Origin: a virus
Taxonomy: Duplodnaviria; Caudoviricetes
Strand: one strand, 5' to 3'
DNA length: 64,000 bases
Virus record (IMG/VR): IMGVR_UViG_2928552194_000001
Coordinates: 853 to 64,852 of that record
The notes beneath the pieces are model-generated. The model worked only from the letters and a program-made list of their open reading frames with translations, was not told the DNA's origin and did not search any database. The translations under genes were made by a program, and so were the position numbers. How positions within the stretch are numbered: position 1 is the stretch's first letter; the number at the start of each line of letters is the position of its first letter. This document shows, one piece after another, positions 44,973 to 57,616 of this stretch.

Positions 44973-44977
44973 AGGAC

Positions 44978-45532
44978 TTACTCCGCGGCTTCGGCAAAGG
45001 GGTCGTCGGCATCGTGGCCGGAGATCAGTTCGTCGCCGTCTTGCTCGGAATTCCGCTTTTCCATGGCCAAGGCGAGATCAGACAGCATCTGCTCCTGCGC
45101 CTTCTTCCATGACGCGGACCATGCCCGGCCCATAGGGCTGTTGGCATCGTATGGAGGCTCGCAGTCCTTGCCGGCAAAGCCTGCTGCCTCGCCTTCTCGC
45201 GCTGCACGATCCTCGCCGGGTTCGCGGTCCACATCACCGAACAATTCCGGCTGAGCACCGATCGGCAGAGCAAACCACTGCGCAATTTCGGCTTCCCGCT
45301 TGATGCGATCGGTCAGGATTTCCGGGTCTTCGATCTCCGCGCACTTCATCATGAAGTCGATGTCGCTGAGAACGATTCCGTCGGCCTTCGCCAGCCTGCG
45401 CAGGCGCTTGTACTCGGCCTGCTGCTCGGCAACCTTGACCTGCTGCGCGCTGATCGCCGCGAAGTGATGGAATTTGAGCGCCTTCCATTCGGCCGGCGTC
45501 AGTTCCGAGTTGTGGCCTGCTTCTGCGTTCAT
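44978..45532 (-). CDS. Hypothetical protein with RMF-like C-terminal motif
   Basis: GHNS start; RAAREGEAAGFAGKD..PPY...AWSASW. Confidence 0.65.
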   Translation of the reverse strand: MNAEAGHNSELTPAEWKALKFHHFAAISAQQVKVAEQQAEYKRLRRLAKADGIVLSDIDFMMKCAEIEDPEILTDRIKREAEIAQWFALPIGAQPELFGDVDREPGEDRAAREGEAAGFAGKDCEPPYDANSPMGRAWSASWKKAQEQMLSDLALAMEKRNSEQDGDELISGHDADDPFAEAAE

Positions 45533-45543
45533 GTCGGGGCTCC

Positions 45544-45774
45544 TCAGAATGGGATTTCGTCGTCAAGGTCGCCGGGCCGCAGATCGATGAACTGGACATC
45601 GACCTTCTCAACGGCACCGACGGTTTCGAGAATGAAGAAGCGGACACCGGGGACCATTCGCGCCAGCCGCTCCGCTTCTGTACGCGCACTGTCGAAAGAC
45701 TTGTGTCTGGCCGTGGGAGCACCCTGCCCCGCGCCGTAGACCATCCAGAACCGCTCGTTGTTCATGCTGATCAC
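45544..45774 (-). CDS. Small phage hypothetical protein
   Basis: FWMVYG..PTARH...EAERLAR motif; C-terminal DDEIPF. Confidence 0.65.
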   Translation of the reverse strand: MISMNNERFWMVYGAGQGAPTARHKSFDSARTEAERLARMVPGVRFFILETVGAVEKVDVQFIDLRPGDLDDEIPF

Positions 45775-45925
45775 CTCTCGTCACCACGCCGTGGCGCGCT
45801 GGATGGATGGGCTGGGTTCACTTCCGAACTGGACCGAGGCATTGGCGATGAGCACCAGCCCGACCACGACCGCGACCGCGGCGGCGAATGCGAGGACCGG
45901 GCGCAACCGAATTCGCTCGCCAGCC

Positions 45926-46351
45926 TCAGCCTTGAAAATCAGCGTCGCGCCGAGCCCCTGTATCCTGCCGCCGGTCCACAAGAGGGAACGACCGGCCATA
46001 ACCAGGATCGATCTGCTCAAGCCGACGCCTGAGTGCTTCTGCTTCGGTCTGGGCGATGAAGAGTTCGTGTTTTGCACGGCTCAGGGTTTCCTCGTTGTGC
46101 TTTGCCAAGGCTTCGCGGATCGCGTCGGCAAGATCGGCCGGAACGCGCTTGATCTTCCGCCAGCGAAGGCGCTCGATTGTCGTGTGAGGCAGGCGCGCCG
46201 CGCGTGCTGCCCGTGTGATCTGCTCTTTGGCAGAGCCGTCACCACCAAGGACGCGGACGGCTGACGCCATCTCTTCCTGGATTGCTTCAACTCGATACAT
46301 TTCCGCCTCGCGCCGTGGATTTTCCGGTTCGCGCCGTGAGATTTCCGTCAT
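45926..46351 (-). CDS. HTH regulator in cII-like position
   Basis: KEQITRAARAARLPHTTIERLRW HTH-like segment, downstream of cro. Confidence 0.55.
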   Translation of the reverse strand: MTEISRREPENPRREAEMYRVEAIQEEMASAVRVLGGDGSAKEQITRAARAARLPHTTIERLRWRKIKRVPADLADAIREALAKHNEETLSRAKHELFIAQTEAEALRRRLEQIDPGYGRSFPLVDRRQDTGARRDADFQG

Positions 46352-46543
46352 TGAGAAGTGCTCCACGCCTAGATTGATCGGCGTGGGGGTCGGGCCTGAA
46401 CGGCTCGATCTCGAAGGGAAGAAAGGGAATGATGAATGCGCTCTTTTCCGAACCGCCAAGAACAGACGAGAGCGACGCAACTGGTACTGCCGTTCCCCGA
46501 TTGGGGACGGCGAAGGGCTGACAATGACGATGACCCATTCGCA

Positions 46544-46744
46544 TCAGCGCCGAACCTCCCAGTCACGGGTGAACTCGCACTGCTCAAGATCGACATGGCT
46601 CCGAAGCTCGGCAGCAAGATCGCGCCGGGCAGCCTCACGCTTGATGATCTCGTGGCGCGCTGCGGCCCTGCCGAGCAGATAGCCAGCAAAACCGGTGACG
46701 ACCGGCGATAGGGCCACGAACAGATCGAGCCAGGTCGAGATCAT
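46544..46744 (-). CDS. Small membrane protein
   Basis: N-terminal TM; overlaps the upstream stop. Confidence 0.5.
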   Translation of the reverse strand: MISTWLDLFVALSPVVTGFAGYLLGRAAARHEIIKREAARRDLAAELRSHVDLEQCEFTRDWEVRR

Positions 46745-46947
46745 GACGCTCGCCTTTCCGTCTCGACCGGAAGGGCCTTTTCACGGCAGCGCTGGCAATA
46801 GACGCGCCGGGAAGCAACGGCTTCCGAAACGCCAAGTCGTTCAGCAATCTCGACCGTATCGAGGCCCATGAGAAACAGGGCATATGCCGACGGTTTGCTG
46901 CGTGGGCGCTGATCATCGCCGGCGAATTGAACGAGGGCCTGGGTCAT
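46741..46947 (-). CDS. Small HTH protein
   Basis: GLDTVEIAERLGVSEAVASR. Confidence 0.65.
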   Translation of the reverse strand: MTQALVQFAGDDQRPRSKPSAYALFLMGLDTVEIAERLGVSEAVASRRVYCQRCREKALPVETERRAS

Positions 46948-47993
46948 GCTGCCCTCGCCTTCATTGCCGCATTGGAGCAGGCAGAGCACGAGGCTTGCGA
47001 ATGAGCCCACTTGCACGTTTCCGGCTTCTGGCAACGCGGGTTGAGGAAATTATCGACCGCACCGGCATGGGCGGGGGGCTTGGGGGATGCCGGTGCGGCC
47101 TCGGCTGGGGTAGCCGATGGGGTGTCGGACGGCGACGGTTCAACGCCAGCGGCGTTCGCCAGTCGGGCCATGCCCTTCACTGCAACGAATGCGTTGCCGT
47201 CCGATTGGGAATTGGTGGTGACGGACGCTGCTCCACCAAAGGCTTCAACATCCCGTCCGTCACCTTCGCCGGTATTCGTCGCCGGCGTCGACCTACTCAC
47301 CTCTCCCGCCATGCTGTCGGCTCGCCTCATCGTGGCCTTGCCGGTCGCACCGTTGTCCTCGGAGGCTTTCGCTTGGAATTGGAGATTGTTTCGGGCCAGG
47401 AAGAGCGCCCTGCCCTCATCGCCGGCGCGGTCAAATGGCGACTGAATGGCGTCGGCATCGCGCTCAGGGGCCGCGCGGGTGTCGACGGCCTGCGCAGCGG
47501 CATGACGTTCACCGGTTTTCAGGAGGTTGACCGATACGCGCTCGTTCTCACGCTCGACTCGCTCACGCCAGTCCGAAACAATTTCAGTGAACTCGGCTTC
47601 GGGGATCGCTGCCAGTTTACGAGCGCGGTCGGCGAGATGCTTATCGATGCCGGCATCAGCCAATGTCGGGCGATCATCCCGCGGGTCCGTTTGCGACCCA
47701 CGGCGAAGCGAGCCGGTGTTGAGGCCGACAGTAGCCCTTTGATCGGCGATCATTTCGCCCAGCCGGCGCTCAGCCCTGATCCTGATCTCGGCCGCGTCGA
47801 CCTCAAGCTGCTTGTTCTTCGCCTGCCTCGCGTAGGCCCGCATCGCTTCCGAGCGGTCGCGGATATCCTTCACATCATCGACGGACTTAGCTTCGGCAAG
47901 CGCACGGCAGGCGGCATCATATCGAACCAGCGACGGCTCGTTTGCCGCAGGCGGCGCAGCCTCTCCAGACTTTATGTCGCCGTAGGAGATCAT
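46944..47993 (-). CDS. Phage protein with helical N-domain, low-complexity linker and Cys-rich tail
   Basis: YDAACRALAEAKSVDDVKDIRD...RAERRLGEM..TLADAGI domain; ATGA overlap with cro. Confidence 0.65.
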   Translation of the reverse strand: MISYGDIKSGEAAPPAANEPSLVRYDAACRALAEAKSVDDVKDIRDRSEAMRAYARQAKNKQLEVDAAEIRIRAERRLGEMIADQRATVGLNTGSLRRGSQTDPRDDRPTLADAGIDKHLADRARKLAAIPEAEFTEIVSDWRERVERENERVSVNLLKTGERHAAAQAVDTRAAPERDADAIQSPFDRAGDEGRALFLARNNLQFQAKASEDNGATGKATMRRADSMAGEVSRSTPATNTGEGDGRDVEAFGGAASVTTNSQSDGNAFVAVKGMARLANAAGVEPSPSDTPSATPAEAAPASPKPPAHAGAVDNFLNPRCQKPETCKWAHSQASCSACSNAAMKARAA

Positions 47994-48211
47994 GCGGCTT
48001 CTCCGGTGGCCGGGGCCTCGAAGAACCAAGCATCGTTCCAGTCGATCGACCGATCGGCGGCAGCACGGCGGATCGCCTGCATTTCGTCGAGAGACGGCGC
48101 AACACCGGCTTCCCAACGAGACACGCTCGCCTGGGTCACACCTGCCAAAGCCGCAAATTCGGCCTGTGTTACCTTGAAAATTTCTCGACGGATGTATCGG
48201 ATCGCGCTCAT
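47990..48211 (-). CDS. cro: Cro-like HTH repressor
   Basis: VTQAEFAALAGVTQASVSRWE; divergent from cI. Confidence 0.88.
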   Translation of the reverse strand: MSAIRYIRREIFKVTQAEFAALAGVTQASVSRWEAGVAPSLDEMQAIRRAAADRSIDWNDAWFFEAPATGEAA

Positions 48212-48224
48212 GGCTACGCATATT

Positions 48225-48293
48225 ATGCGCAAACGGATAGTTTGCAAGCGCAAAATTATGCGCAAGCGGATTTTCCTTTATCCGCCCTACATG
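48225..48293. promoter_or_regulatory. OR-like operators between cro and cI
   Basis: ATGCGCAAACGGATA (48225-48239), ATGCGCAAGCGGATT (48258-48272) and a degenerate TATCCGCCCTACAT; same motif at 52063-52130. Confidence 0.82.
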
Positions 48294-48307
48294 GCAGCGT
48301 CCTTTTC

Positions 48308-48958
48308 ATGACGATCGAGCAGAAAATCCGCGCCATCATGAAGGCTACTGGCTGGAAGCAGCAGAAGCTTGCTGAGCATTTCGAGGTATCGCAATCGACA
48401 GTGAACCGCTGGCTGTCCGGATCTGAACCGGAAGGCCACCGCCGCGATGCGATTAACGAAACCTATGAACGGCTGGTAGACCACGGTCCGAAAGATGGCG
48501 ACGGCTCAGAGGTTCCCCTTATGGGATTTCTAGGAGCTGGCGCGGAAGTCGAGCCGGACTATGAGCAGGTCCCACCAGAAGGGCTTGACCAGATCCATAT
48601 CCCTTTTCCGGTCCCAGACGATATGATTGCGTTTTCTGTCAGCGGGATCTCGATGATGCCGGTCTTCAAACCCGGCACGATTATCGTGGTTTACCGCGAA
48701 CAGAAGAAGCCGATCGAATCTTTCTATGGGATGGAGGCTGCCGTTCGGACAGCGGAAGGCCGGCGCTTCATCAAGACGATCACCAAGGGCAGCAAACCCG
48801 GAACGGTCACCCTCACGTCGTGGAACGACCCCATGCCGATTGAGGATCAGAAACTGGAATGGATAGGCGAGATATTCGCGGTGCTGCCGCCGGCCGCATT
48901 GAGGAAGGTCGAAAAGCAGGGTGGCATCCAAGGTCATCTTGGTTTGAAGACAGCATAG
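48308..48958 (+). CDS. cI: CI-like repressor (HTH plus S24 autopeptidase)
   Basis: QQKLAEHFEVSQSTVNRW HTH; GAG cleavage site; GISM (Ser) and FIK (Lys) dyad; no SD, so possibly leaderless. Confidence 0.92.
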   Translation: MTIEQKIRAIMKATGWKQQKLAEHFEVSQSTVNRWLSGSEPEGHRRDAINETYERLVDHGPKDGDGSEVPLMGFLGAGAEVEPDYEQVPPEGLDQIHIPFPVPDDMIAFSVSGISMMPVFKPGTIIVVYREQKKPIESFYGMEAAVRTAEGRRFIKTITKGSKPGTVTLTSWNDPMPIEDQKLEWIGEIFAVLPPAALRKVEKQGGIQGHLGLKTA

Positions 48959-48971
48959 CTCTGGAGGCTTG

Positions 48972-49355
48972 ATGATGACAGTCGATCGCGGGGAACCCGA
49001 TCTTTACGTCAAACTTCCAGAACGCCCCGATCTGGTCGGCACGATGATGCGCGGCCATACAATGGGCGCGATCAAGGATGGCTGGATCGTCTACTACTAC
49101 GATTTGCGGCGCCGGCCCTCAGATGATCTCGTGGGGGAATTGTGCATTGTCATGACGGAAGGCGGGCGGAAGCTCATTCGCTATCTCCGCCGCGGCCACC
49201 TACCGGGAACGTGGGATCTTGTGACCGATTCCGGGAACCACATCCTCGACGTCGTTCTCCAGTGGGCAGAAAAGGTAGTTCTGATACAGCCCTATGTGCC
49301 CAATGGGGAAGAGTTGGCGAAGTTGGCCAAGCACAACTCGGTTAGCACCGAATAA
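48972..49355 (+). CDS. Stand-alone S24-like domain with altered catalytic residues
   Basis: Aligns by eye to the CI C-domain; GHTM and LIR replace GISM and FIK; GGAGG SD. Confidence 0.7.
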   Translation: MMTVDRGEPDLYVKLPERPDLVGTMMRGHTMGAIKDGWIVYYYDLRRRPSDDLVGELCIVMTEGGRKLIRYLRRGHLPGTWDLVTDSGNHILDVVLQWAEKVVLIQPYVPNGEELAKLAKHNSVSTE

Positions 49356-49372
49356 GCGCGGAAGGGCTTGGA

Positions 49373-49597
49373 ATGACCCCAGACCAGCTCGACGCCGCCC
49401 TGCACGACATACGCTGGACGCCCGACATCCTGGCCCGGGCGCTGGGATGCGACGTCTCGCTTGTCCATGCCTGGCTCGACGGAAACGCCGAAATCCCCAT
49501 GAAGGTCGGCGTCTGGATCAAGGTCGTTGCCGACCACCACCAAGCTTTCGAGCAGACCAAGCCGGCCGGCGTGAAGGGCAAGAAGTATCTGGAATGA
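49373..49597 (+). CDS. Small XRE-like HTH protein
   Basis: ILARALGCDVSLVHAWLDGNAEIP. Confidence 0.75.
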   Translation: MTPDQLDAALHDIRWTPDILARALGCDVSLVHAWLDGNAEIPMKVGVWIKVVADHHQAFEQTKPAGVKGKKYLE

Positions 49598-49776
49598 AAA
49601 TCACCCTCACCCTCTTGACCGACGAGCGAATTGCCTTGCGTCGGTTTGCCAATGCGACGGGTAAAAGCCTGGATGACGCGGCACATCTGGCACTCCGGGA
49701 ATATCTGATCAGCACCGGAGATTTGGAGATGCTGCACGAGTTAGGCGAGGATACGGAGACGGCCGGAGAGGCGTAA
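49594..49776 (+). CDS. Small ribbon-helix-helix-like protein
   Basis: MKITLTL..ERIALRRFA...LDDAAHLALREYL; ATGA overlap. Confidence 0.6.
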   Translation: MKITLTLLTDERIALRRFANATGKSLDDAAHLALREYLISTGDLEMLHELGEDTETAGEA

Positions 49777-49801
49777 CGCGTCATCCGCGGCATATTGTCA
49801 G

Positions 49802-49845
49802 TTGACGTTAACGAACTATATAGGTATCACCATGATACATAGTTC
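49802..49845 (+). promoter_or_regulatory. TA promoter with palindromic operator
   Basis: TTGACG-17-TATCAC; GTATCA-CCA-TGATAC nested within GAACTAT...ATAGTTC. Confidence 0.7.
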
Positions 49846-49875
49846 AAGCGGGAAAGCTCGCTTGCAGGGGGAGCT

Positions 49876-50247
49876 ATGACTGCAACTCAGCCGTGGGAGC
49901 CGGGCCGTGCTACCATTGAGATTAGATCGATCGCACGCAGCAAAAAACTTAATATTAGCTACAAGCTGCATGCGCGGGACCGATTGGCCGAACGCAGCCT
50001 AATCGTCTCGGATGTTTTGCACGCGCTGAAATACGGCAACGTTTATCAGGCCCCCATACCGGCAACCAGGGCCGGCCACTACCGCTATCGAATTGAATGC
50101 CGAACGCCAAATAGCGGAAGCAGGACAATCGGGGTCGTCGTTATCCCGTCGAAAAGTGGGTGCTTGATAAAAGTTGTATCGGTCATGTGGATCGATGAGT
50201 TCGAGCGGAATGCAGGCTCGATAATTGGAGTACCAGAAGATGAATAG
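49876..50247 (+). CDS. DUF4258-family (RelE-fold) toxin
   Basis: YKLHARDRLAERSLIVSDVLHALKYG...YRYRIE...VVSVM. Confidence 0.8.
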   Translation: MTATQPWEPGRATIEIRSIARSKKLNISYKLHARDRLAERSLIVSDVLHALKYGNVYQAPIPATRAGHYRYRIECRTPNSGSRTIGVVVIPSKSGCLIKVVSVMWIDEFERNAGSIIGVPEDE

Positions 50248-50698
50248 CTCACATCATTACACCGAATGCGGCCTCATGAATGTCTACATCGATGGCATCG
50301 CCGTGGAGATGGATGATGACGGCGATGAAATCATCACCATTCCCGCCGTGAACGAGTTGCACCACATCATTGCGCTCGGCATTGTCCAGCACGAAAAGGG
50401 CATGAGCGGCGACGAGCTAAGGTTTCTCCGGACCGAAATGGGGTTGACACAGGCTGAATTGGCGAACCTTGTCCATCGCGACAAGCAATCGATCGGCCGG
50501 TGGGAACGGGATGAGATTGACATTGATAGCACATCGGAGGCGATCATTCGTCGCATGGCTATCGAGAAACTTAAGCTTCCGGTCGAGGCAGGGATTGATG
50601 AACTGTCTCGCCGAAGTGTTCCTACTGTCGATGAGCAGCCGATCAAGATCCAAAAGGTCGATAATGACCATCGAACTTACGAGTTGCTCGCAGCATAG
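50240..50698 (+). CDS. HTH antitoxin (HigA/MqsA-like)
   Basis: HYTECGLMNVY N-domain and ELRFLRTEMGLTQAELANLV...IGRWE HTH; overlaps the toxin. Confidence 0.82.
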   Translation: MNSSHHYTECGLMNVYIDGIAVEMDDDGDEIITIPAVNELHHIIALGIVQHEKGMSGDELRFLRTEMGLTQAELANLVHRDKQSIGRWERDEIDIDSTSEAIIRRMAIEKLKLPVEAGIDELSRRSVPTVDEQPIKIQKVDNDHRTYELLAA

Positions 50699-50702
50699 TC
50701 TA

Positions 50703-50731
50703 GACCCCGGCTCCGGCCGGGGTTTTCGTTT
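50703..50731 (+). terminator. Rho-independent terminator
   Basis: ACCCCGGC-TCCG-GCCGGGGT followed by TTTCGTTT. Confidence 0.8.
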
Positions 50732-50765
50732 CAGGCGATCAATGGTGGGCAACCGAGGTGCCCCT

Positions 50766-51068
50766 CTACCGCCAGCTTCTCGCGTCTCGATCACGCTGAT
50801 CTAGCAAGTGCTTCATCGCTTCATTCCGGCTACATCGATATTTTCTGGCCGCCCCCGCGATCAATTCCTCCTGCCGCTTAACTCCCATCATCGCGAAGAC
50901 GTTGCGGAATCGTAGCTCGGTCGCGGACACAGGACGGCGCCAGATTCGGCTTATCTTTCGCCCAGAGACAACCAGCGCCAGTAGGGAAAGGGCCACAAAG
51001 GCTACCGCGGCCAGGGCGACCGTTACAACGTTGGCCCGAACTAGTTCTATGATTTCTTCAAGCCCCAT
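50766..51068 (-). CDS. Membrane-anchored hypothetical protein
   Basis: Single N-terminal TM, basic C-domain. Confidence 0.6.
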   Translation of the reverse strand: MGLEEIIELVRANVVTVALAAVAFVALSLLALVVSGRKISRIWRRPVSATELRFRNVFAMMGVKRQEELIAGAARKYRCSRNEAMKHLLDQRDRDARSWR

Positions 51069-51140
51069 GGCTTTGATGATGGCTCGAACAGATTACCGAA
51101 TGGGAAATGGCTGATCGCTGGTTGGTCAGCGCCATCCTTT

Positions 51141-51488
51141 CTACGTTTCAGCCCGTGTCTTTTCGGCCAGATACGCGGCCGGATCGATGTGACGGACCTC
51201 CGATGCCGCGCCGAACGTGCCGAGAATGAATGGCTCGCGGCCGACCGGAGCCTTGCCGCCTTGTGCGTTCGGACAGAGCGAACGCTGGAGTTTCACCATG
51301 TACGGGAAAAGCGGCTTGGACCGATCGTTGGTGAACTTGGTTTTTTGCCGGCCGAGCGTACGCGCCATCCAGTACGCCTGCCGCTCGCTTTTTAGAGCAT
51401 CGACGTCGACACCCTTGCGCCGAAGCCAATCGCGAAGCGGATAGAGTGCTTCTGGCCAGTCGTATGTCGTAATCGGACGTTTGCTCAT
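51141..51488 (-). CDS. Basic hypothetical protein downstream of the long leader
   Basis: MSKRPITTYDWPEAL...; GGAAGG SD before ATG 51488. Confidence 0.65.
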   Translation of the reverse strand: MSKRPITTYDWPEALYPLRDWLRRKGVDVDALKSERQAYWMARTLGRQKTKFTNDRSKPLFPYMVKLQRSLCPNAQGGKAPVGREPFILGTFGAASEVRHIDPAAYLAEKTRAET

Positions 51489-51489
51489 G

Positions 51490-52043
51490 TGGTTTCCTTC
51501 CTGATCCCATAGGCTTCCAAAAGGAGCGTCCTTCACACATCGAAGGCCGTCCTTTCCCGTCGGCTCGAAGACCGACCAAGCATCCGTGAAACCGATATAC
51601 GCCCAGCCTGGCATTTGATTTGGCAGTGCCCACCTGCCCTTCACCGGCATCCTCCCGCCTGTCCAGCGGTGCGAACGGAACGCGCCGATACGAAACTCAA
51701 CTATGGCGTGTGATAAGTTGGCTGGGATTATTCCTCGCGCAGCAAGCGTTGTTCGAGGACGGGCGCTCCAAACCCCGTCGGCTTCGTCCGATGATTCCGC
51801 CACCGGCAGCGGTTGGGAAATTCATGCACCGGATGATCGGCGCGACGGGGCAAAATCCCCTGAAGACCGTCGCCTCATGCGCTTGAACCGCTACGTCTTG
51901 CCGGGAACCTCCGAGCAGACACAAGATGTTGCGACTTTCGCGCCGCGCAGGCCCGTTTGTTGTTGTCGATCCGGTCATGTTCTGATACATAAGCCGTCAG
52001 TTATCTTTGTGCTGCGCGCCCCGGTCGGATCATCCCGCCGGGG
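51490..52043 (-). ncRNA. Candidate ~550-nt structured RNA or long leader
   Basis: No convincing ORF; several stems (e.g. CCCCGTCG 51773 / CGACGGGG 51843); predicted minus-strand promoter at 52049-52077. Confidence 0.45.
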
Positions 52044-52053
52044 CTTTTCTTTT
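51998..52053 (+). ncRNA. Candidate ~55-nt antisense RNA
   Basis: TTGTCG(51963)-17-TACATA(51986) promoter; GCCCCGG/CCGGGGC terminator (52018-52044) plus TTTTCTTTT. Confidence 0.5.
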
Positions 52054-52135
52054 ATCCGCGACTATCCGCCTTCGCAATTAATTTTATCCGTTTGCGCATT
52101 TTCTTTCTTGACGTTTATCCGTTTGCGCATATTAT
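52049..52135. promoter_or_regulatory. OL-like operators with divergent promoters
   Basis: TATCCGTTTGCGCAT at 52085 and 52116, degenerate copy at 52063; + strand TTGACG(52108)-16-TATTAT; - strand TTGCGA-17-TAAAAG. Confidence 0.8.
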
Positions 52136-52197
52136 CCGCTCATACCCACCACGAAGAAGCCCCGGCCGATCTGGTGGATTTGAGAGGAAACGGAACG

Positions 52198-52632
52198 ATG
52201 GCAGCCGATACGAAGACGATTGACCGGATCAAGTCACTGCGCCGCGAGGCTGCAGCAATTGCCGGTTTTCATGCGCTCTATTCCGAGAAGTATTCGCCCG
52301 ACAGTCATTGCGACAAGAAGGGATACGGCTTCGGTGGTGACGACCGTTTTGCAGCGTTCACCATCAACTCCAAGTTCGAGAGCCATGCCGGATACTACGG
52401 CAATTCGTCCTGCTCTCGCATCCTCAATGTCTACGACCGCGAGATTGTCGAGAAGGCTTTCGTCAAGGCTCTCAACATTCACCAGAAAGAGCTTTTCGCG
52501 ACCGCAGCCCGCCTCATGCGTGAGGAGGCCGCGAGCCTGACCGATCAGGCTGCGAAGGAAATCGAAGCGCTCAAATCGCTGCTCGACACGGCGCTTGCAG
52601 ATGTTGCCGAAGCGCAATCCGAAGCGGCGTGA
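52198..52632 (+). CDS. First gene of the PL-like early operon, hypothetical
   Basis: GAGAGG SD before ATG 52198. Confidence 0.7.
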   Translation: MAADTKTIDRIKSLRREAAAIAGFHALYSEKYSPDSHCDKKGYGFGGDDRFAAFTINSKFESHAGYYGNSSCSRILNVYDREIVEKAFVKALNIHQKELFATAARLMREEAASLTDQAAKEIEALKSLLDTALADVAEAQSEAA

Positions 52633-52647
52633 CGGGAGGCCAGTCTC

Positions 52648-53052
52648 ATGAACATCCACTCGCAGGACTACCTTGCCGATACGCCGATGAAGGTGCGCCG
52701 GGACTTGCTGGCGGCGGTCGAACTTTATCGGAACGAAGACACGATCATGCTGGAGCAGGCCATCGAGGCCATAGCTTCGGGCCGGGCCGTGTACTGGACC
52801 GCCTCGGGCTATTCCAACGCCCGCGCCTCGGACCTGCCCTACGAACTTAACCGGGGCAAGCCGATCCTTGAGGCGATCGACGCGGCATATGCGGGCCGTG
52901 AGTTCCTGCGCCAGCAAGCTCTCGACACCATTGTTCCGATCAACCGCAAGGCCGCGAATGCCCTTGTTCTGGCTTATGCCAAGTTCGGGTCTTGGGTGGA
53001 CGAGGACGAGCTTTTGGAGCGCCGGGTGCGTGATGTGCGGAGGGCTGCGTGA
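52648..53052 (+). CDS. Hypothetical protein
   Basis: GGAGG SD; tight packing. Confidence 0.65.
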   Translation: MNIHSQDYLADTPMKVRRDLLAAVELYRNEDTIMLEQAIEAIASGRAVYWTASGYSNARASDLPYELNRGKPILEAIDAAYAGREFLRQQALDTIVPINRKAANALVLAYAKFGSWVDEDELLERRVRDVRRAA

Positions 53053-53309
53053 TGTCCTACGCAAGCGAGCAAGGCGTTCTGAATGCGCAATGGAATGCGG
53101 CTGAGATGGCCTTTCAGGCCGAGAGAGCAAAATGCTCTCCGCATGTCCTGATGCGCCCCAGATCGTTCCCTGACGGGAACATGTGGTGCGCCCTCTATGG
53201 GGAAAATTTGCAGGAGGGCGTAGCTGGCTTTGGCAAAACTCCAGAGCGTGCCGTCGCTGACTTCGACAAGAACTGGCGCGAACAGACTTTGGCGGGTGGG
53301 ACGACATGA
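53049..53309 (+). CDS. Small phage protein with HicB-like motif
   Basis: DGNMWCALYGENLQEGVAGFGKTPERAVADFD. Confidence 0.65.
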   Translation: MMSYASEQGVLNAQWNAAEMAFQAERAKCSPHVLMRPRSFPDGNMWCALYGENLQEGVAGFGKTPERAVADFDKNWREQTLAGGTT

Positions 53310-53560
53310 CCCGCGCCCGCCACGAACGCCAGATCAAGCTGACGAGCTACACCCACAACGGACGCAACACGTTCGAGGCCGCGCTTTTCGAGGTCCTGTA
53401 TCGACGCGGCGCACTCGACCTTTCCTGGCTCTCCGACGATCTGATCGCGGAAGTCCGACACCGCATGATTTCAAAGGAATGGTCCCGCCACAAGTTCCGC
53501 CGCGAGCAGCGGAAGCAAGCGCAAGCCATCCTCGCAAAGCAGAAGGAAGAAGCGGCATGA
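53306..53560 (+). CDS. Hypothetical protein
   Basis: ATGA overlaps at both ends. Confidence 0.6.
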   Translation: MTRARHERQIKLTSYTHNGRNTFEAALFEVLYRRGALDLSWLSDDLIAEVRHRMISKEWSRHKFRREQRKQAQAILAKQKEEAA

Positions 53561-53979
53561 GCGCGCTCGGATACGCAGAAGGCGAAATGTGCAACCGGGG
53601 TGGCTGCGTTGGCGTCATCGAATTGCACCGTAGCGAAAACTGCTCGTGCCACATCACCCCACCGTGCCTTTCCTGCACATCGCCGCGTGGCTATTGCCCC
53701 GCCTGCGACTGGCAAGAGGCCGATGACCCGCTCGTCGTGATGGAAGTCACCACGATCCACCTGCCGACCGGCTTCATCGAGCGCAGGAAGCGCGTCCTCG
53801 ACCCGTCGAAGATCGACTACCGCATCGAGGCGCATAGCAACTCGTCGCAAAAAGTCATCGGCGTCTACCCGGAAGGAACGGCGCGGGCAGAGGTAGAGCA
53901 GCGCGTCAAGGGCACCTTTGGTGGTCGCTTTGAGCGCTTCGGCTCCGGCCATTTCACCTACATCGCGTCCACAGACTAG
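53557..53979 (+). CDS. Cys-rich hypothetical protein
   Basis: CNRGGC...CSCHITPPCLSC...CPAC. Confidence 0.7.
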   Translation: MSALGYAEGEMCNRGGCVGVIELHRSENCSCHITPPCLSCTSPRGYCPACDWQEADDPLVVMEVTTIHLPTGFIERRKRVLDPSKIDYRIEAHSNSSQKVIGVYPEGTARAEVEQRVKGTFGGRFERFGSGHFTYIASTD

Positions 53980-53991
53980 GAGGCCGCATAG

Positions 53992-54318
53992 ATGCCCGCC
54001 GATACAGTGAAGCATACGCCGGGGCCGTGGCACATCGTTGACACCTTCGACGGTAAATACACCATCGCGGCGGGAGACAGCATCGTTGCGCGCGTCGATG
54101 GCAACGAAATGGGAGCCGCGTTCTCACCCAAGCAGAACAAGGCCAACGCCGACCTGGTTGCGTTCACCAGCACCGCTTTCAGCCGAGAACGTCTCGAACC
54201 CATTCTCATCGACCTCGTCACGAAGGGCATTGAGGGATGGAAGAAGAACGACGAGGCTTTGATTGATCTGGCAATCTCAGATGCCATTGCAACCATCGCC
54301 AAAACGGAGGGCTGCTGA
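53992..54318 (+). CDS. Phage hypothetical protein (HTPGPW family)
   Basis: KHTPGPW...ANADLVA motif. Confidence 0.7.
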   Translation: MPADTVKHTPGPWHIVDTFDGKYTIAAGDSIVARVDGNEMGAAFSPKQNKANADLVAFTSTAFSRERLEPILIDLVTKGIEGWKKNDEALIDLAISDAIATIAKTEGC

Positions 54319-54506
54319 TGTCCCCCGCCCCCGAATTCATCACCATCGAACTGGCCCGCCTTACCCGCGCTGAGGGTCAGTGGGCCCGCCGGTTTCGAGA
54401 TTACGAACTGCTCCTGACCGCCGGCCTGTCCTGCGAGGAAGCGGCGCAGATCGTCACCGATCTGGCGCGAGAGGCTGAATCCCAACGCGAATTGGAGGCT
54501 GTGTAG
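54318..54506 (+). CDS. Hypothetical protein
   Basis: GGAGG SD; TGATG overlap. Confidence 0.55.
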   Translation: MSPAPEFITIELARLTRAEGQWARRFRDYELLLTAGLSCEEAAQIVTDLAREAESQRELEAV

Positions 54507-55511
54507 ATGGAACGCATTGAGCCCGATCGTTTCGAATCCGTCGGCGCCGTGGTCGGAAATCTGGTCAACGGCCTCTCTGGCGAACATGTCTACCGCGGCG
54601 GCCAGATCTCCGAGCCTGGCGTTTATTCCGGCGTCGATATCGAGCGCTACCACCACGATCCCAACTTGTTCGACGGCTTCTCGATTTCATCCAGCGGCGT
54701 CCGTTCCGTTCTGCGCCGGCCGCTCGAATACTGGTGGACCAGCCCGTACAATCCCAACCGGGAAGAACCGGAGAGCAAGCCTTCCCTCGACTTCGGCAAG
54801 GCAGCGCACATGCTTCTTCTGGGCGAAGATGGCTTTGCCGAGCGATATGCGCTGCGTCCGGCCAAATACGAGGACGACAAGGGCGTCTGGAAGCCGTGGA
54901 ACGCCAATTCCAACCTCTGTAAGGAATGGCTGGCCAAGACCGCCGAGGCCGGCAAGACGGTAATCACCGAAATCGAAATCGGCCATATCCGCCACATGGC
55001 AGCCGCACTCCAATCCAAGGAAGCGGTTCGGCTCGGCATCCTGAACGGCAGGATCGAGCGGTCGATCTTCACCAAGCGCAACGGCATCTGGCTCAAGAGC
55101 CGGCCCGACGTAATTCCCAACTCATCGGGCGATTTCGTTGATCTGAAAACCGCTGCGTCTGTCGATGACGAAAGCCTGTCGCGGGCGATTTTCGCCCATG
55201 GCTATCACGTGCAGGCAGGGTTCACCCGCATGGTCGTTCGCGACGTGCTCGGGCCTGACGCCTTCACGTCCTTCACCTTCGCCTTTGTCGAGAAGCAGCC
55301 GCCCTACGACGTGCGGATCATGCAGTTGAAGGACAGCGACATCGACCTTGGCGAGCGTCAGGCGATGCGCGGGCTGGCAATCCTGGCTGAGTGCATCACG
55401 CGCGGAGAGTGGCCCGGCTTCGATGGGCACGACCAGCACATTTCATTCGTGGAAATGCCTGCATGGGCGCGGACGCGGATCGACACTGAATTGAATGCGG
55501 TGGCGGCATGA
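54507..55511 (+). CDS. RecE/ExoVIII-like PD-(D/E)XK exonuclease (DUF3799)
   Basis: ISSSG, FGKAAHMLLL, KSRPD..VDLKT, GYHVQA and FVEK motifs. Confidence 0.88.
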   Translation: MERIEPDRFESVGAVVGNLVNGLSGEHVYRGGQISEPGVYSGVDIERYHHDPNLFDGFSISSSGVRSVLRRPLEYWWTSPYNPNREEPESKPSLDFGKAAHMLLLGEDGFAERYALRPAKYEDDKGVWKPWNANSNLCKEWLAKTAEAGKTVITEIEIGHIRHMAAALQSKEAVRLGILNGRIERSIFTKRNGIWLKSRPDVIPNSSGDFVDLKTAASVDDESLSRAIFAHGYHVQAGFTRMVVRDVLGPDAFTSFTFAFVEKQPPYDVRIMQLKDSDIDLGERQAMRGLAILAECITRGEWPGFDGHDQHISFVEMPAWARTRIDTELNAVAA

Positions 55512-55750
55512 TCATCGATCCCGACTTCCGCGAGGTCGATGAGCCGGTTGTCACGCTTCAGATGAGCCTCAGCCAAGCCGAAGCCCTCTCAAGTGGCATG
55601 TCCGACCTGCTGTGCTGGGCCAACGGTTTCATGGCCGCGAAGGGCGAGGACTTCCGCTTCGACCCCATGGGCACCCACCAAATCCGAGAACTGAACATCG
55701 CCCTGAAAAGCGCAATGGCGCGGGCCGAGAAAGAGGAAACGAGCGAATGA
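55508..55750 (+). CDS. Hypothetical protein
   Basis: ATGA overlaps at both ends. Confidence 0.6.
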   Translation: MIIDPDFREVDEPVVTLQMSLSQAEALSSGMSDLLCWANGFMAAKGEDFRFDPMGTHQIRELNIALKSAMARAEKEETSE

Positions 55751-56436
55751 AGGTCCGCGTCATTGATTTTGAGACAACCGGCCTGCCCGAGGATCAAACC
55801 AAGGGCATCTGCGAAATCGGCTGGACCGACGTCACCGACGACTGGCAGGTTCATGGGCCATATTCGATACTGGTCAATCCCGGTCATTCGATCCCACCAG
55901 TCACCCGAGCCATCCATCATATTTCCGATGCTGACGTTGCCGGGGCGATCTCGCCCGACGTTGGCTGCGCCAAACTGATGGCCGGCATGGAGCCGGGAGA
56001 CGTTTTCGCCGCGCACAATGCCAAGTTCGAGCGGGCATTCTTTGGCGGCGGTCAGCATGACTGGATTTGCACGCTTCAGTGCGCCCGGCATCTGTTTCCC
56101 GATGCTCCCGGTCATTCGAACCAAGTCCTTCGCTACCATCTTGGCATCGACGAAGAAGACGATTTCGACTCGGAAGCCTCCATGCCGCCGCACCGTGCCG
56201 GCCCCGATACGTTGGTCACGGCCTTCATTCTGCGCCGCCTGATCTTCGCGTCGAGCCTGGCCAAGCTGGTTGAACTGACCACCGCGCCCGTCGTCCTCCA
56301 GACCATCACCTTCGGCAAGCACCGCGGCACCAAATGGGCCGACCTGCCGCGCGATTATCTCCAATGGATCGCGTTCAAGTCCGAACTCGGCGCGGATGAG
56401 AAGCACACCGCACGTCACATTCTGGGAGCCAACTGA
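55747..56436 (+). CDS. DEDDh 3'-5' exonuclease (ExoX-like)
   Basis: IDFETTG, AHNAKFE, HRAGPD and C-terminal FGKHRG motifs. Confidence 0.9.
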   Translation: MKVRVIDFETTGLPEDQTKGICEIGWTDVTDDWQVHGPYSILVNPGHSIPPVTRAIHHISDADVAGAISPDVGCAKLMAGMEPGDVFAAHNAKFERAFFGGGQHDWICTLQCARHLFPDAPGHSNQVLRYHLGIDEEDDFDSEASMPPHRAGPDTLVTAFILRRLIFASSLAKLVELTTAPVVLQTITFGKHRGTKWADLPRDYLQWIAFKSELGADEKHTARHILGAN

Positions 56437-56437
56437 T

Positions 56438-57616
56438 ATGAACCAGATCGCCACTCAATCCGACAGCCGCATGTTGGCCATCGAGGAAAAGATCAATCGC
56501 GACGTGTCATCTGCAATCACCGTCGGCGTCGGCGGCATCACCTTCCAGAATGCCGGCGAGGTCATGGAGTACGCCAAGATGATGGCCGTCTCCGGTTCGG
56601 CCGTGCCAAAGCATCTTCGCGGCCAGCCCGGCGCCTGCCTCGGCATCATCGACGATGCGATCCGGTTTCGGACCAGCCCGTATGCGCTGGCCCGCAAGAG
56701 CTACTTCGTCAACGACAACCTGGCTTACGAGGCTCAGGTCATCGCCGGCGTCATTAATGCCTTTGCGCCTTTGAAGCAGCGCCCCGATATTAAATGGGAA
56801 GGCGAAGGGCCGGATCGCGTCTGCATCGTGATTGCCGAGTTCAAGGACGGCGCGGTGCGCGAGGTCAAGAGCCCGAAGCTCAAGGACATCCATCCCAAGA
56901 ATTCGCCGCTGTGGAAGTCTGACCCGGATCAGCAGCAATCCTACTATACCCTGCGGTCCTTCGCCCGCCGGTGGTGCCCGGAAATCATTCTCGGCATCTA
57001 CGACGTGGAGGAAATGCGCTTTGCCGAGATGCGTGACGTCTCGCCCGAACAGCCGTCGGTCATGCAGCGCCTTCAAGCCCGACAGGAAGGCTCCCAGACG
57101 CGCGAAGGCTTCGATCAGTCCTTTGTCACCCGCGAAACGGCCGCGCTCACTGGCGAGGCCGACAGCGGCCAGACCGAAGACAATTCCCAATCGTCGGTGC
57201 CCTCTCCCGACGACGGCAGCAGCGGCGGGGAAACGCCATCCTCTCAAACCGCTGCTGCCACCAATTCACAGCCCGATGATGAATCGGGCACCTCGGAGGA
57301 AGGCGACAATCCCGGTCAGGTAACCACGGAAACGGCCGCACCTTCCTCCGACCTCCATTCCGGGGACCGGGCATGGTTGCTCGAGCTTGCAAAGCAGCTT
57401 TGGGCCGCAACCGGTCTTGGCGAGCAAGAGCTTGTTTCGGCCATCGCCGCCGATCTTCGCAAGACGGCGCCCGAAGATCTGTCCCAGTTGGCCCGCGACA
57501 AGGCCCTGTCCGTCGTCAAGCAATGCAAGCTGGTCTGTTTCGGAGAGCAGGAAGCTGGCGACACGCTGCCGATCATCGCTGGTATCGTTGGTGTCGAAGT
57601 CGGGGAGATTGCTTGA
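56438..57616 (+). CDS. recT: RecT-family single-strand annealing protein
   Basis: VPKHLRGQPGAC, AYEAQ, SPLWKSDPDQQ and RRWCPEIILGIY motifs. Confidence 0.82.
   Translation: MNQIATQSDSRMLAIEEKINRDVSSAITVGVGGITFQNAGEVMEYAKMMAVSGSAVPKHLRGQPGACLGIIDDAIRFRTSPYALARKSYFVNDNLAYEAQVIAGVINAFAPLKQRPDIKWEGEGPDRVCIVIAEFKDGAVREVKSPKLKDIHPKNSPLWKSDPDQQQSYYTLRSFARRWCPEIILGIYDVEEMRFAEMRDVSPEQPSVMQRLQARQEGSQTREGFDQSFVTRETAALTGEADSGQTEDNSQSSVPSPDDGSSGGETPSSQTAAATNSQPDDESGTSEEGDNPGQVTTETAAPSSDLHSGDRAWLLELAKQLWAATGLGEQELVSAIAADLRKTAPEDLSQLARDKALSVVKQCKLVCFGEQEAGDTLPIIAGIVGVEVGEIA

What the first reader, a model, noticed from the sequence alone, without database searches (positions are those of the whole stretch)
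51141..52135. Candidate RNA-controlled replicon: operator-gated ~550-nt structured RNA plus ~55-nt antisense RNA in a phage with no visible initiator
Seen: 51490-52045 is the longest stretch in the phage without a credible gene. It has several stems: CCCCGTCG 51773/CGACGGGG 51843 enclosing an inner CCGAT..TCCG/CGGA..ATCGG stem, CCTCG 51733/CGAGG 51754, CAACT 51698/AGTTG 51716 and TCTTG 51896/CAAGA 51922. A minus-strand promoter (TTGCGA 52077-52072, 17 nt, TAAAAG 52054-52049) points into it and is overlapped by a degenerate copy of the repressor operator. A plus-strand promoter (TTGTCG 51963, 17 nt, TACATA 51986) would give a ~55-nt RNA ending at the 52018-52053 terminator, complementary to the 5' end of the long RNA. 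Known: this geometry matches ColE1 RNAII/RNAI primer control and the ctRNA control of repABC and ColE2 rep leaders. Inference: the phage may start replication from an RNA primer that is derepressed on induction and limited by antisense RNA. Alternatively, the RNA pair controls the 115-aa basic ORF at 51141-51488. The promoters are predictions, and one stem pairs better on the plus strand, so the folding strand is uncertain.
Basis: partly seen in the sequence, partly recalled or inferred. Interest (0 to 1): 0.85.

Follow-up and report, generated by a model that had tools for sequence, protein, structure and literature searches.

The report
Conserved structured RNA beside phage switch
A roughly 540-base, gene-free stretch next to this prophage's early promoter is a conserved, folded RNA locus with its own small antisense RNA, shared by dozens of related phages and absent from RNA family databases, though its function is still unknown.

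Summary
Window 51507-52053 is non-coding and has homologues in 69 loci, 57 of them distinct at 97% identity. They come from IMG/VR viral contigs and from Mesorhizobium, Chelativorans, Hoeflea and related genomes. In the core, 33 of 47 tested base pairs show changes on both sides, against 20.2 in shuffles (0 of 500 reach it). Of 21 distinct indels, 20 are not multiples of three. Rfam gives no match.

The element always lies between the repressor operon and the operator-controlled early promoter, a lambda PL-like layout. All copies end in a plus-strand terminator with a near-invariant loop. An embedded promoter (TA in 53 of 53) would give an sRNA of about 55 nt. A minus-strand TTG box sits at a fixed distance in 46 of 55 copies and would start a long RNA at the hairpin base.

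Two hairpins lean the other way.

The geometry is supported. The replication-primer reading is neither supported nor excluded; I put it at about 0.12. I read the locus as a new switch-associated sense/antisense RNA module of unknown output. The scan had flagged look-alikes four times on other DNA.

The parts
51507..52053 (.). Whole conserved non-coding element (about 547 bp)
   Evidence: Conservation profile over 57 distinct homologues. The left limit matches the junction 51148|51507 in a relative's contig. The right limit is the end of the T-run.
51519..52046 (-). Inferred long structured RNA (about 525 nt). The start is inferred from the promoter-like site, and the end from a terminator-like hairpin that is not universal.
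   Evidence: A.C versus G.U asymmetry in covarying helices; promoter register. The 115-aa ORF start lies 19 nt beyond the element's left end, leaving no room for a promoter of its own. No transcript was observed.
52049..52077 (-). Minus-strand promoter-like site: -35 TTGCGA 52077-52072, 17 nt spacer, -10-like TAAAAG 52054-52049
   Evidence: TTG at one fixed position in 46 of 55 hairpin-anchored homologues (4 more shifted by 1), against 0-4 at every other position. The -10-like box is CAAAAG in 21 and TAAAAG in 14. This box is weak by the TATAAT standard.
52052..52070 (+). Two degenerate operator half-site copies (TTATCCGC, CTATCCGC) inside the minus promoter's spacer and -10
   Evidence: Read. 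The full operators are defined.
52084..52130 (+). Two exact 16-nt operator copies (52084-52099 and 52115-52130). Related copies lie at 48225-48240 and 48258-48273 between the cro-like and cI-like genes.
   Evidence: 4 matches with up to 3 mismatches, against 0.58 expected.
52108..52135 (+). Early (PL-like) promoter TTGACG-16-TATTAT
   Evidence: TTGAC is conserved in homologues.
51963..51991 (+). Embedded promoter of the small RNA: -35 TTGTCG, 17 nt spacer, TG at 51983-51984, -10 TACATA
   Evidence: TA in 53 of 53. The best -35 hexamer starts TTG in 36 of 53, and a 17-nt spacer is best in 35 of 53. TG stands two bases before the -10 in 37 of 53, while the surrounding sequence varies.
51998..52053 (+). 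Inferred small RNA, about 55 nt (54-56 nt in most homologues, 59-85 in the others)
   Evidence: Distance from the -10 to the terminator. The start point is inferred, not observed.
52018..52053 (+). Intrinsic terminator: stem 52019-52024/52038-52043, near-invariant loop GGATCATCC, T-run 52045-52053
   Evidence: 98.7% of cells paired, with CG/GC swaps in 22 sequences and UA in 4. There are 7-9 T in the 10 nt after the stem in 55 of 55.
51944..52018 (-). Helix H_B (51944-51949 with 52013-52018). It encloses the variable stretch that holds the small-RNA promoter.
   Evidence: 5 of 6 pairs change on both sides; for example UA 25, GC 18 at one pair.
51879..51943 (-). Central long hairpin: 51879-82/51940-43, 51889-91/51931-33, 51895-51901/51921-27, with a near-invariant apical loop at 51902-51920 that carries GGAGG on the minus strand
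   Evidence: 12 of 14 pairs change on both sides. A.C 71 against G.U 14.
51831..51838 (.). Conserved segment GGATGATC, complementary to the terminator loop at 52028-52035 (pseudoknot or kissing site)
   Evidence: 94.6% of cells paired. One homologue (L063) changed two pairs on both sides and kept pairing.
51843..51872 (.). Helix 51843-51848/51867-51872
   Evidence: 6 of 6 pairs change on both sides.
51787..51806 (.). Hairpin 51787-51793/51800-51806. Its loop is AGCCTGG in most homologues and differs in the window.
   Evidence: Pair types GC/TA/AT/CG at single pairs. It is misaligned in A4 (60.9% paired).
51523..51780 (.). Left half: further hairpins, including 51559-63/51572-76, 51622-26/51633-37, 51655-58/51666-69 and 51733-59 with inner 51737-39/51747-49
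   Evidence: Covariation among 20 homologues of the same left-half type. Other homologues carry 2-3 different left-half sequence types.
51519..51553 (-). Terminator-like hairpin 51553-51523 followed by UUUU on the minus strand
   Evidence: A site of this kind was found in only 11 of 57 homologues, 4 of which were too short to test.
51141..51488 (-). 115-aa ORF: an accessory gene, not part of the conserved element
   Evidence: It has one homologue beside an element, in L182 at 76% identity, so it lies beside the element in 2 of 57 loci, the window and L182. A further copy lies away from any element in L006. It is skipped in a relative's contig. No Pfam or PHROG match.
52137..52197 (+). Leader of the early operon, with motifs conserved across phages that have different operators
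   Evidence: Alignment print; conservation peak at 52137-52156.

Best explanation
This is a previously undescribed sense/antisense RNA module belonging to the genetic switch of a family of temperate phages of Hyphomicrobiales.

Shown:
- The element is conserved, non-coding and about 540 nt long, with many covarying helices.
- It always sits between the 3' end of the repressor (cI-like) operon and the operator-controlled early promoter.
- It ends in a plus-strand intrinsic terminator whose loop hardly varies.
- An embedded, conserved promoter lies 25-27 nt upstream of that terminator in most copies.

Inferred:
- The embedded promoter makes a plus-strand RNA of about 55 nt.
- A second promoter diverges from the early promoter and is overlapped by weak operator copies. 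It starts a minus-strand RNA of about 525 nt at the base of the same hairpin.
- The small RNA is therefore fully complementary to the first ~50 nt of the long RNA.
- Pairing would begin loop to loop.
- Pairing would also take away two things the long RNA needs for its fold. One is a strand of covarying helix 51944-49/52013-18. The other is the 5' loop, which otherwise pairs with the conserved segment 51831-38.
- The small RNA would thus refold or destabilise the long RNA and limit its activity.

I think the long RNA acts in lysis-lysogeny control. It could work against the convergent repressor operon, or on a conserved host or phage partner through its invariant loops. I do not think it acts as a replication primer. 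Whether CI switches the long RNA off or on is not known.
For: - Homologues: 69 loci, 57 distinct at 97%.
- Non-coding: 20 of 21 distinct gap runs are not multiples of 3.
- Covariation on 53 sequences: 33 of 47 pairs change on both sides, against 20.2 +/- 1.9 in shuffles (0 of 500). The covariation score is 0.257, against 0.115 shuffled and 0.043-0.075 with partners slid.
- Small RNA: -10 TA in 53 of 53. The best -35 hexamer starts TTG in 36 of 53, with a 17-nt spacer best in 35. TG precedes the -10 in 37 of 53. The T-run has 7-9 T of 10 in 55 of 55.
- Minus promoter: TTG at one fixed position in 46 of 55, against 0-4 elsewhere.
- Strand: outside one misaligned hairpin, A.C 110 against G.U 33. 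In the central hairpin plus H_B, 42 of 53 sequences have more A.C than G.U and 3 the reverse.
- Context on the right is constant: operators, early promoter and a conserved leader.
- Context on the left varies. A plus-strand repressor-type or small gene ends just before the element in 14 of 57 loci. In the window and L182, minus-strand ORFs lie there instead. This fits an RNA that starts at the right.
- The 115-aa ORF starts 19 nt beyond the element with no room for a promoter.
- Pseudoknot: 94.6% paired, with two compensatory changes in L063.
- Layout resembles lambda cI-terminator-OL/PL. The early operon holds RecE-like, RecT-like, excisionase-like and integrase genes. Four operator copies lie at the two control regions.
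Against: - No transcript start, end or strand was observed. The public runs gave only contigs.
- The minus promoter's -10-like box has no T at its last position and is weak by the E. coli standard.
- A terminator-like 3' end on the minus strand was found in only 11 of 57.
- The strand evidence is mixed. Hairpin 51787-51806 and the 51758-63/51774-79 pairing carry more G.U than A.C. Consensus folding energies are about equal on the two strands.
- The better single-sequence folding of the minus strand is reproduced by shuffled sequences, so it reflects composition.
- Where the repressor gene abuts the element, few loci show a plus-strand terminator in between (9 of 57). Plus-strand read-through RNA is therefore also expected in lysogens.
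- The sequences are related, so counts overstate the number of independent events.
- The output function is a guess.
Confidence: 0.5

Rival explanations
1. The functional long RNA is the plus strand. It would be a large structured 3' untranslated region, or a separate RNA, made in lysogens downstream of the repressor operon and ending at the strong terminator. The 55-nt RNA would be a 3'-coterminal product. In effect this is a lysogeny-expressed 'ornate' phage RNA.
For: - The only unambiguous transcription signal is the plus-strand terminator, present in 55 of 55.
- In 14 of 57 loci a plus-strand gene ends just before the element. Few loci have a terminator in between.
- Two hairpins carry more G.U than A.C.
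- The loop/51831-38 pairing works equally well within one plus-strand RNA.
Against: - A.C 110 against G.U 33 in the well-aligned helices.
- There is no conserved -35 at the left end.
- In the window, two minus-strand ORFs and a terminator-like site at 50709-50724 separate the element from plus-strand operons. Even so, the element is intact.
Confidence: 0.25
2. The long minus-strand RNA would be a ColE1-like preprimer, or would activate an origin, for lytic replication. It would be gated by CI and limited by the antisense RNA, in phages that carry a DnaB-like helicase but no initiator.
For: - The geometry matches: a long RNA plus a short antisense RNA at its 5' end.
- The window phage has a DnaB-like helicase and no recognised initiator.
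- The protein next to the cro-like gene looks like DUF3102-type phage proteins, not an initiator.
- Related phages share the same set: DnaB-like, RuvC-like, methyltransferases, phrog_26995 and phrog_33995.
Against: - Nothing tested bears on priming.
- There is no similarity to any Rfam family, including plasmid replication-control RNAs.
- The 3' half, where the origin should be, is the least conserved part and comes in several types.
- Cumulative GC skew shows no turning point near 51.5 kb.
- Conserved proteins of unknown function (phrog_26995, phrog_33995) could be the initiator.
- In most loci the RNA would run into the repressor gene.
Confidence: 0.12
3. The RNA pair is a leader and attenuator that controls the downstream minus-strand genes: the 115-aa ORF and the 100-aa membrane protein.
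For: - In the window and L182 the 115-aa ORF follows directly.
- A terminator-like hairpin lies between the element and the ORF.
- Two metatranscriptome contigs span the ORF start and the element's left part.
Against: - The ORF lies beside the element in only 2 of 57 loci, the window and L182.
- A relative's contig joins 51148 to 51507 without it.
- In 14 of 57 loci the left neighbour is a plus-strand gene.
- So this can only be a local add-on.
Confidence: 0.08
4. It is not an RNA at all. It would be conserved DNA-level sites, or a degenerate protein-coding gene.
For: - Open frames of 50 aa or more overlap the element on the minus strand in 43 of 57 loci and on the plus strand in 32.
- The window's own MFE z-scores are unremarkable.
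Against: - Compensatory changes occur in many helices.
- Frame-breaking indels account for 20 of 21 gap runs.
- Open frames on both strands fit composition rather than coding.
- Pfam and PHROGs find nothing for the 220-aa extended frame.
Confidence: 0.05

Closest known systems
ColE1-type RNAII/RNAI replication control (recalled, not tested beyond Rfam)
   Same: A long structured RNA of about 0.5 kb is paired with a short antisense RNA. The antisense RNA is complementary to the long RNA's 5' end and is made from a promoter inside the long RNA's template. The expected mode of action is loop-loop contact followed by refolding.
   Different: There is no sequence or structure match in Rfam. The locus sits in a phage immunity region, divergent from an operator-controlled early promoter. 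There is no evidence of an origin, and the 3' half is poorly conserved.
IncI-alpha/IncB-type antisense control with an activating pseudoknot (recalled)
   Same: The loop targeted by the antisense RNA is also complementary to a distal segment of the same long RNA. The antisense RNA would therefore compete with a pseudoknot.
   Different: In those plasmids the distal segment adjoins the rep start codon. Here no conserved ORF or start codon follows.
Phage antisense RNAs such as P22 sar, lambda OOP, and the P1 c4, P4 CI and N15 CA immunity RNAs (recalled)
   Same: These are small phage RNAs in or near immunity regions that act by base pairing.
   Different: Their targets are mRNAs of protein genes such as ant and cII. 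Here the partner is a 0.5-kb non-coding structured RNA conserved across phages with different operators. There is no Rfam C4 match.
Large ornate phage-associated RNAs GOLLD and ROOL (search listings and abstracts seen)
   Same: They are several hundred nucleotides long, richly structured, often in prophages, and of unknown function.
   Different: There is no covariance-model match. The host group differs (Hyphomicrobiales). This element has a fixed place in the genetic switch and an antisense partner, and it is not next to tRNAs.
Lambda OR/PRM-PR and cI-rex-terminator-OL/PL layout (recalled)
   Same: The repressor operon runs towards a terminator that lies just before the operators and an early promoter. 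That promoter serves recombination, excision and integration genes. Divergent promoter-like sites share the operators.
   Different: The leftward promoter-like site here faces the repressor operon and would transcribe a non-coding RNA, not the repressor.
Convergent-transcription switches with antisense RNA, such as pCF10 prgQ/prgX (recalled)
   Same: Two opposed transcription units overlap, and a small RNA acts on the nascent opposing transcript.
   Different: That system is a plasmid conjugation system with different RNAs. No attenuator was found here.

Membership tests
Any Rfam 15 family (including RNAI, C4, GOLLD, ROOL and alphaproteobacterial sRNAs) | Covariance-model match at or near the family's gathering score | tested here: not met
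   No match at E<=1 in 44000-58000. In 51600-52080 at E<=10 there were only six weak hits. The best four lie over the plus-strand small RNA and its terminator, and the top one is NsiR1 at 21.4 bits against a gathering score of 39. No match at gathering in 10 relatives' loci, 93189 bases.
ColE1-type primer control | Short antisense RNA complementary to the 5' end of a long RNA | tested here: inconclusive
   Conserved promoter-like sites and a terminator give this geometry. No transcripts were observed.
ColE1-type primer control | The long RNA forms a hybrid at an origin and is processed into a primer; the fragment replicates autonomously | not testable with these tools
   This needs replication assays. 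The 3' half is the least conserved part.
IncI-alpha/IncB-type pseudoknot control | The target loop pairs both with the antisense loop and with a distal segment | tested here: met
   51831-38 with 52028-35 is 94.6% paired, with two compensatory changes in L063.
IncI-alpha/IncB-type pseudoknot control | The distal segment adjoins the ribosome site and start of a rep gene | tested here: not met
   The nearby ATG is missing from whole subgroups. No conserved ORF exists, and indels break the frames.
Type I toxin-antitoxin (hok/sok-like) | A conserved small hydrophobic ORF in the long RNA | tested here: not met
   No frame is conserved in the core. The left half comes in several sequence types with covarying hairpins. 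No dedicated hydrophobicity scan was run.
Intrinsic terminator | G+C-rich hairpin followed by a U-run | tested here: met
   The stem is 98.7% paired with compensatory swaps. There are 7-9 T of 10 in 55 of 55.
Sigma-70-type promoter (small RNA) | -35 and -10 boxes in register, conserved within variable sequence | tested here: met
   TA in 53 of 53. The best -35 hexamer starts TTG in 36 of 53, a 17-nt spacer is best in 35 of 53, and TG is present in 37 of 53. Activity was not tested.
Sigma-70-type promoter (long minus RNA) | -35 and -10 boxes in register | tested here: inconclusive
   The -35 TTG is fixed in 46 of 55. The -10-like box, CAAAAG or TAAAAG, lacks the final T.
Lambda-like immunity layout | Repressor operon, terminator, operators, then an early promoter serving recombination, xis and int genes | tested here: met
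   cI-like S24/HTH protein; RecE-like, RecT-like, excisionase-like and integrase genes; operators.

The most novel reading that the evidence does not exclude
The long RNA is a preprimer or R-loop-forming origin RNA. On this reading a whole family of temperate alphaproteobacterial phages, which carry a helicase but no initiator protein, would start lytic replication from a repressor-gated transcript. The dose of that transcript would be limited by an antisense RNA. In effect this is a ColE1-style replicon built into a phage genetic switch.
Probability: 0.12. Interest if true: 0.9.

Novelty: categorically new. Interest (0 to 1): 0.78.

Why it matters
Large, conserved, structured RNAs of unknown function are rare finds. 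This one has a defined place in a phage genetic switch and a built-in antisense partner. It also has dozens of natural sequence variants, some in cultured hosts such as Chelativorans multitrophicus DSM 9103 and Mesorhizobium hunchu CN5-321. That makes it directly testable.

If the long RNA controls the lysis-lysogeny decision, it would add an RNA arm to a switch thought of as protein-run. If it primes replication, it would explain how these phages replicate without an initiator. In either case it is a new RNA family for the databases, and a marker for the immunity region of this phage group.

Tried and rejected
1. Single-sequence folding. The z-scores are unremarkable on both strands.

2. Choosing the strand by MFE of single hairpins. 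The minus strand folds better in most hairpins. Dinucleotide shuffles show the same bias, so the test says nothing.

3. RNAalifold energies are about equal on the two strands.

4. RNAalifold on the first MAFFT alignment of 32 sequences recovered only 17 pairs. Helices were then found by a covariation scan.

5. BLASTN against 50,697 deposited phage genomes gave no match.

6. An order-wide pattern search with 3 mismatches found matches in 25 of 401 genomes. Most had 3 mismatches, and the reversed control pattern also matched in several genomes. It was not used for distribution.

7. Duplex prediction between the early leader and the long RNA gave long duplexes at inconsistent places and was uninformative.

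8. Public runs gave only contigs, so there is no strand, start or end.
   - Contigs of runs X2 and X3 cover 51384-51549 and 51458-51608.
   - X5 covers most of the element at 90-95% likeness.
   - X1 is probably DNA.
   - Parts without cover are not evidence.

9. A protein-atlas look-up of the 115-aa ORF gave nothing.

10. Three literature searches (listings and abstract starts only) turned up no description of such an element. Supplements were not seen, and papers outside the library cannot be excluded.

This was not attempted.

12. Rejected readings: protein-coding gene, tRNA or tmRNA (one search finds only the tRNA-Ser at 12895-12985), and repeats or a mobile element (one copy per phage, at a fixed place).
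Full report
WHAT IS THERE

The window is a high-GC chromosome (about 69% GC) carrying a prophage of about 60% GC from near the tRNA-Ser at 12895-12985 to beyond 64000.

The finding lies in the prophage's immunity region. A cI-like repressor (HTH plus S24 peptidase) is read on the plus strand from about 48.3 kb, divergent from a cro-like gene. Four copies of one 16-nt operator occur. Two lie between the cro-like and cI-like genes (48225-48240, 48258-48273). Two lie at 52084-52099 and 52115-52130 (4 matches, 0.58 expected).

The second pair overlaps a plus-strand promoter, TTGACG-16-TATTAT at 52108-52135. The operon that starts at 52198 holds these genes:
- a RecE-like exonuclease;
- a DnaQ-like exonuclease;
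- a RecT-like protein;
- an HNH nuclease;
- an excisionase-like protein;
- an integrase.

This is the lambda layout as I recall it: repressor operon, terminator, OL/PL, then recombination, xis and int.

The cro-side operon on the minus strand holds methyltransferases, a RuvC-like nuclease and a DnaB-like helicase at 40729-42216.

CHECK OF THE OBSERVATION

The window sequence by itself is not remarkable. Folding z-scores are -0.64 and -0.96. The evidence has to come from comparison.

HOMOLOGUES

BLASTN in 202 genomes of the genus found 10 with a match. Four besides the window's own genome had long matches, all ending exactly at the T-run.

A pattern taken from an invariant block found 21 viral contigs, and all 21 proved to be full homologues. 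These included records titled Mesorhizobium hunchu, Chelativorans multitrophicus, a Hoeflea MAG, a Rhizobiaceae MAG and a Hyphomicrobiales MAG. One 2-kb contig was binned as Gemmatimonadota.

A second pattern, taken from the terminator loop, brought 73 new viral loci (87 matching stretches in all). Of these, 35 matched the element's profile and 31 matched over nearly its whole length.

Altogether there are 69 loci, 57 distinct at 97% identity. Deposited phage genomes gave no BLASTN match.

Conservation is strongest from 51775 to 52053. It continues at a lower level to about 51510, where the left half falls into three or four sequence types.

NON-CODING AND STRUCTURED

In the conserved core, 20 of 21 distinct gap runs are not multiples of three, and variability shows no three-base phase. 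Open frames exist on both strands in many copies, as expected from composition.

I tested a structure of 47 pairs on an alignment of 53 right halves.

| Measure | Observed | Control |
|---|---|---|
| Cells paired | 84.5% | 75.0% in shuffles |
| Pairs changing on both sides | 33 of 47 | 20.2 +/- 1.9 (0 of 500 shuffles reach 33) |
| Covariation score | 0.257 | 0.115 shuffled; 0.043-0.075 with partners slid |

The sequences are related, so the shuffle control overstates significance. The slid control does not share that weakness.

The best helices are:
- 51944-49/52013-18;
- a long central hairpin, 51879-51943, with a near-invariant 19-nt apical loop;
- 51843-48/51867-72;
- the terminator stem.

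The left half of the 20 sequences of the window's type shows further covarying hairpins.

The segment 51831-38 is complementary to the terminator loop, with 94.6% of cells paired. In one divergent homologue (L063) two of these pairs changed on both sides and kept pairing.

TRANSCRIPTION SIGNALS

The terminator's T-run has 7-9 T of 10 in 55 of 55 copies.

Inside the variable stretch enclosed by helix 51944-49/52013-18 lies a promoter pattern that is conserved in register:
- TA of the -10 in 53 of 53;
- the best -35 hexamer begins TTG in 36 of 53;
- a 17-nt spacer is best in 35 of 53;
- TG two bases before the -10 in 37 of 53.

Its distance to the hairpin would give an RNA of 54-56 nt in most copies.

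To the right of the T-run the sequence differs between phages, because the operators differ. When the sequences are anchored on the hairpin without gaps, a minus-strand TTG still stands at one position in 46 of 55 (4 more are shifted by one). At every other position it stands in 0-4. It is 17-18 nt from CAAAAG or TAAAAG, the complement of the T-run. A start would therefore fall at the base of the hairpin.

That -10-like box is weak by the TATAAT standard. From recall, alphaproteobacterial housekeeping promoters are more tolerant at the last position.

In the window, two degenerate operator half-sites lie in this promoter's spacer and -10. A full operator lies 7 nt upstream of its -35. CI could therefore repress it, or activate it as at lambda PRM. 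I cannot tell which.

WHICH STRAND FOLDS

Helices cannot tell the strands apart except through wobble pairs: G.U on one strand reads A.C on the other.

In the well-aligned helices, A.C outnumbers G.U by 110 to 33. In the central hairpin plus 51944-49/52013-18, 42 of 53 sequences have more A.C than G.U and 3 the reverse. Single pairs show the path G-C, A.C, A-T, which on the minus strand reads G-C, G.U, A-U. Hairpin 51559-63/51572-76 has 14 A.C and no G.U.

Against this, hairpin 51787-51806 and the 51758-63/51774-79 pairing carry more G.U. Consensus energies are equal. The single-sequence energy advantage of the minus strand is a composition effect.

Context adds an argument for the minus strand. 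The right flank is constant, while the left flank varies.
- In 14 of 57 loci a plus-strand repressor-type or small gene ends just before the element.
- In the window and L182 a minus-strand 115-aa ORF begins 19 nt beyond it.
- A relative's contig joins 51148 directly to 51507.

An RNA that starts at the right explains this. An RNA starting at the left would need a promoter for which I see no conserved -35. The 115-aa ORF, with no room for its own promoter, must be transcribed through the element.

I put the minus strand at about 0.6 and plus alone at about 0.25; the rest goes to both strands mattering.

Plus-strand read-through from the repressor operon is likely wherever that gene abuts the element. 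Few loci show a terminator in between (9 of 57).

HOW IT MOST LIKELY WORKS

Shown: the conserved element, its helices, its fixed place, the terminator and the embedded promoter pattern.

Inferred: a small plus RNA and a long minus RNA overlap by about 50 nt. The overlap covers the long RNA's 5' hairpin and one strand of helix 51944-49/52013-18. The 5' loop can also pair with 51831-38.

A cis-antisense pair stays complementary whatever mutates. The near-invariance of this loop therefore points to a third partner, and the internal segment is a candidate. Binding of the small RNA would then undo two long-range contacts and refold or expose the long RNA. This is how antisense RNAs work in plasmid copy control, as I recall it.

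The output is not known. My preferred reading is a role in the lysis-lysogeny switch. The long RNA runs towards the repressor operon, and only 11 of 57 loci have a terminator-like 3' end on the minus strand. Its invariant loops, one carrying GGAGG on the minus strand, could also bind a conserved host or phage partner.

THE REPLICON IDEA

- No initiator is recognisable in the window phage.
- The protein after the cro-like gene resembles DUF3102-type phage proteins.
- The commonest cro-side gene clusters of related phages are phrog_26995 (13 loci), RuvC-like, DnaB-like (7 loci), phrog_33995-like, methyltransferases, HNH and ParB-like proteins.

But unknown conserved proteins could be the initiator, and nothing here tests priming. 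The part of the RNA nearest a putative origin is the least conserved. GC skew shows nothing at this place. I give it 0.12.

COMPARISON WITH WHAT IS KNOWN

Rfam 15 has no matching family, either for the window or for ten relatives. Three full-text searches found no description; I saw listings and abstract starts only.

The module works like ColE1 RNAII/RNAI in geometry and like IncI-alpha/IncB control in the loop/pseudoknot competition. It fails the membership tests of both: no model match, no rep gene, no shown origin.

It resembles GOLLD and ROOL only in being a large structured phage RNA of unknown function.

First readers of this scan had flagged look-alike ORF-free, hairpin-dense stretches of about 530-600 nt in immunity regions of four other genomes. 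I did not test those notes.

VERDICT

This is a real, widely conserved, previously undescribed RNA locus. The functional claim is open.

Noticed in passing
52137-52197, and the same place in homologues: The 5' leader of the early operon carries motifs (CCTCATCAGCC, GAAGAAGC, GCCGATCTG) that are conserved across phages with different operators. It could be a nut- or put-like site, or a target of the RNAs.
   Followed up: partly
51141-51488 (-) and L182:8648-8971: The 115-aa basic protein is a real conserved gene with no family match. It lies beside the element in the window and in one of the 56 other distinct loci (L182, 76% identity). A further copy is in an unrelated place of a same-genus genome (L006).
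   Followed up: partly
50766-51068 (-): A 100-aa protein with an N-terminal hydrophobic helix. In a relative seen in a metatranscriptome contig, it follows the element directly.
   Followed up: no
49876-50698 (+): Two overlapping small genes, the second with an XRE-type HTH by eye, followed by a terminator-like site at 50709-50724. They look like a toxin-antitoxin or moron pair. I ran no family search on them.
   Followed up: no
44981-45532 (-) and 46947-47993 (-): phrog_26995 and phrog_33995 (DUF3102-like) proteins are the most widely shared cro-side genes among phages carrying the element. Both are of unknown function and are candidates for a missing replication initiator or helicase loader.
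   Followed up: partly
48225-48273 and 52084-52130: The same 16-nt operator occurs in two pairs in opposite orientation at the two control regions, giving an OR/OL-like arrangement.
   Followed up: yes
L021 (JAKFCC010000065.1, 1995 bp): A full-length homologue lies on a 2-kb contig of a MAG labelled Gemmatimonadota. All other named carriers are Hyphomicrobiales, so this is probably a binning error.
   Followed up: no
L002 (G021:C78): A related prophage shares the operators and early genes at 90% identity (52053-52194). BLASTN finds no match there to 51156-52052, the stretch that holds the element, so the element appears to be exchangeable as a module.
   Followed up: partly
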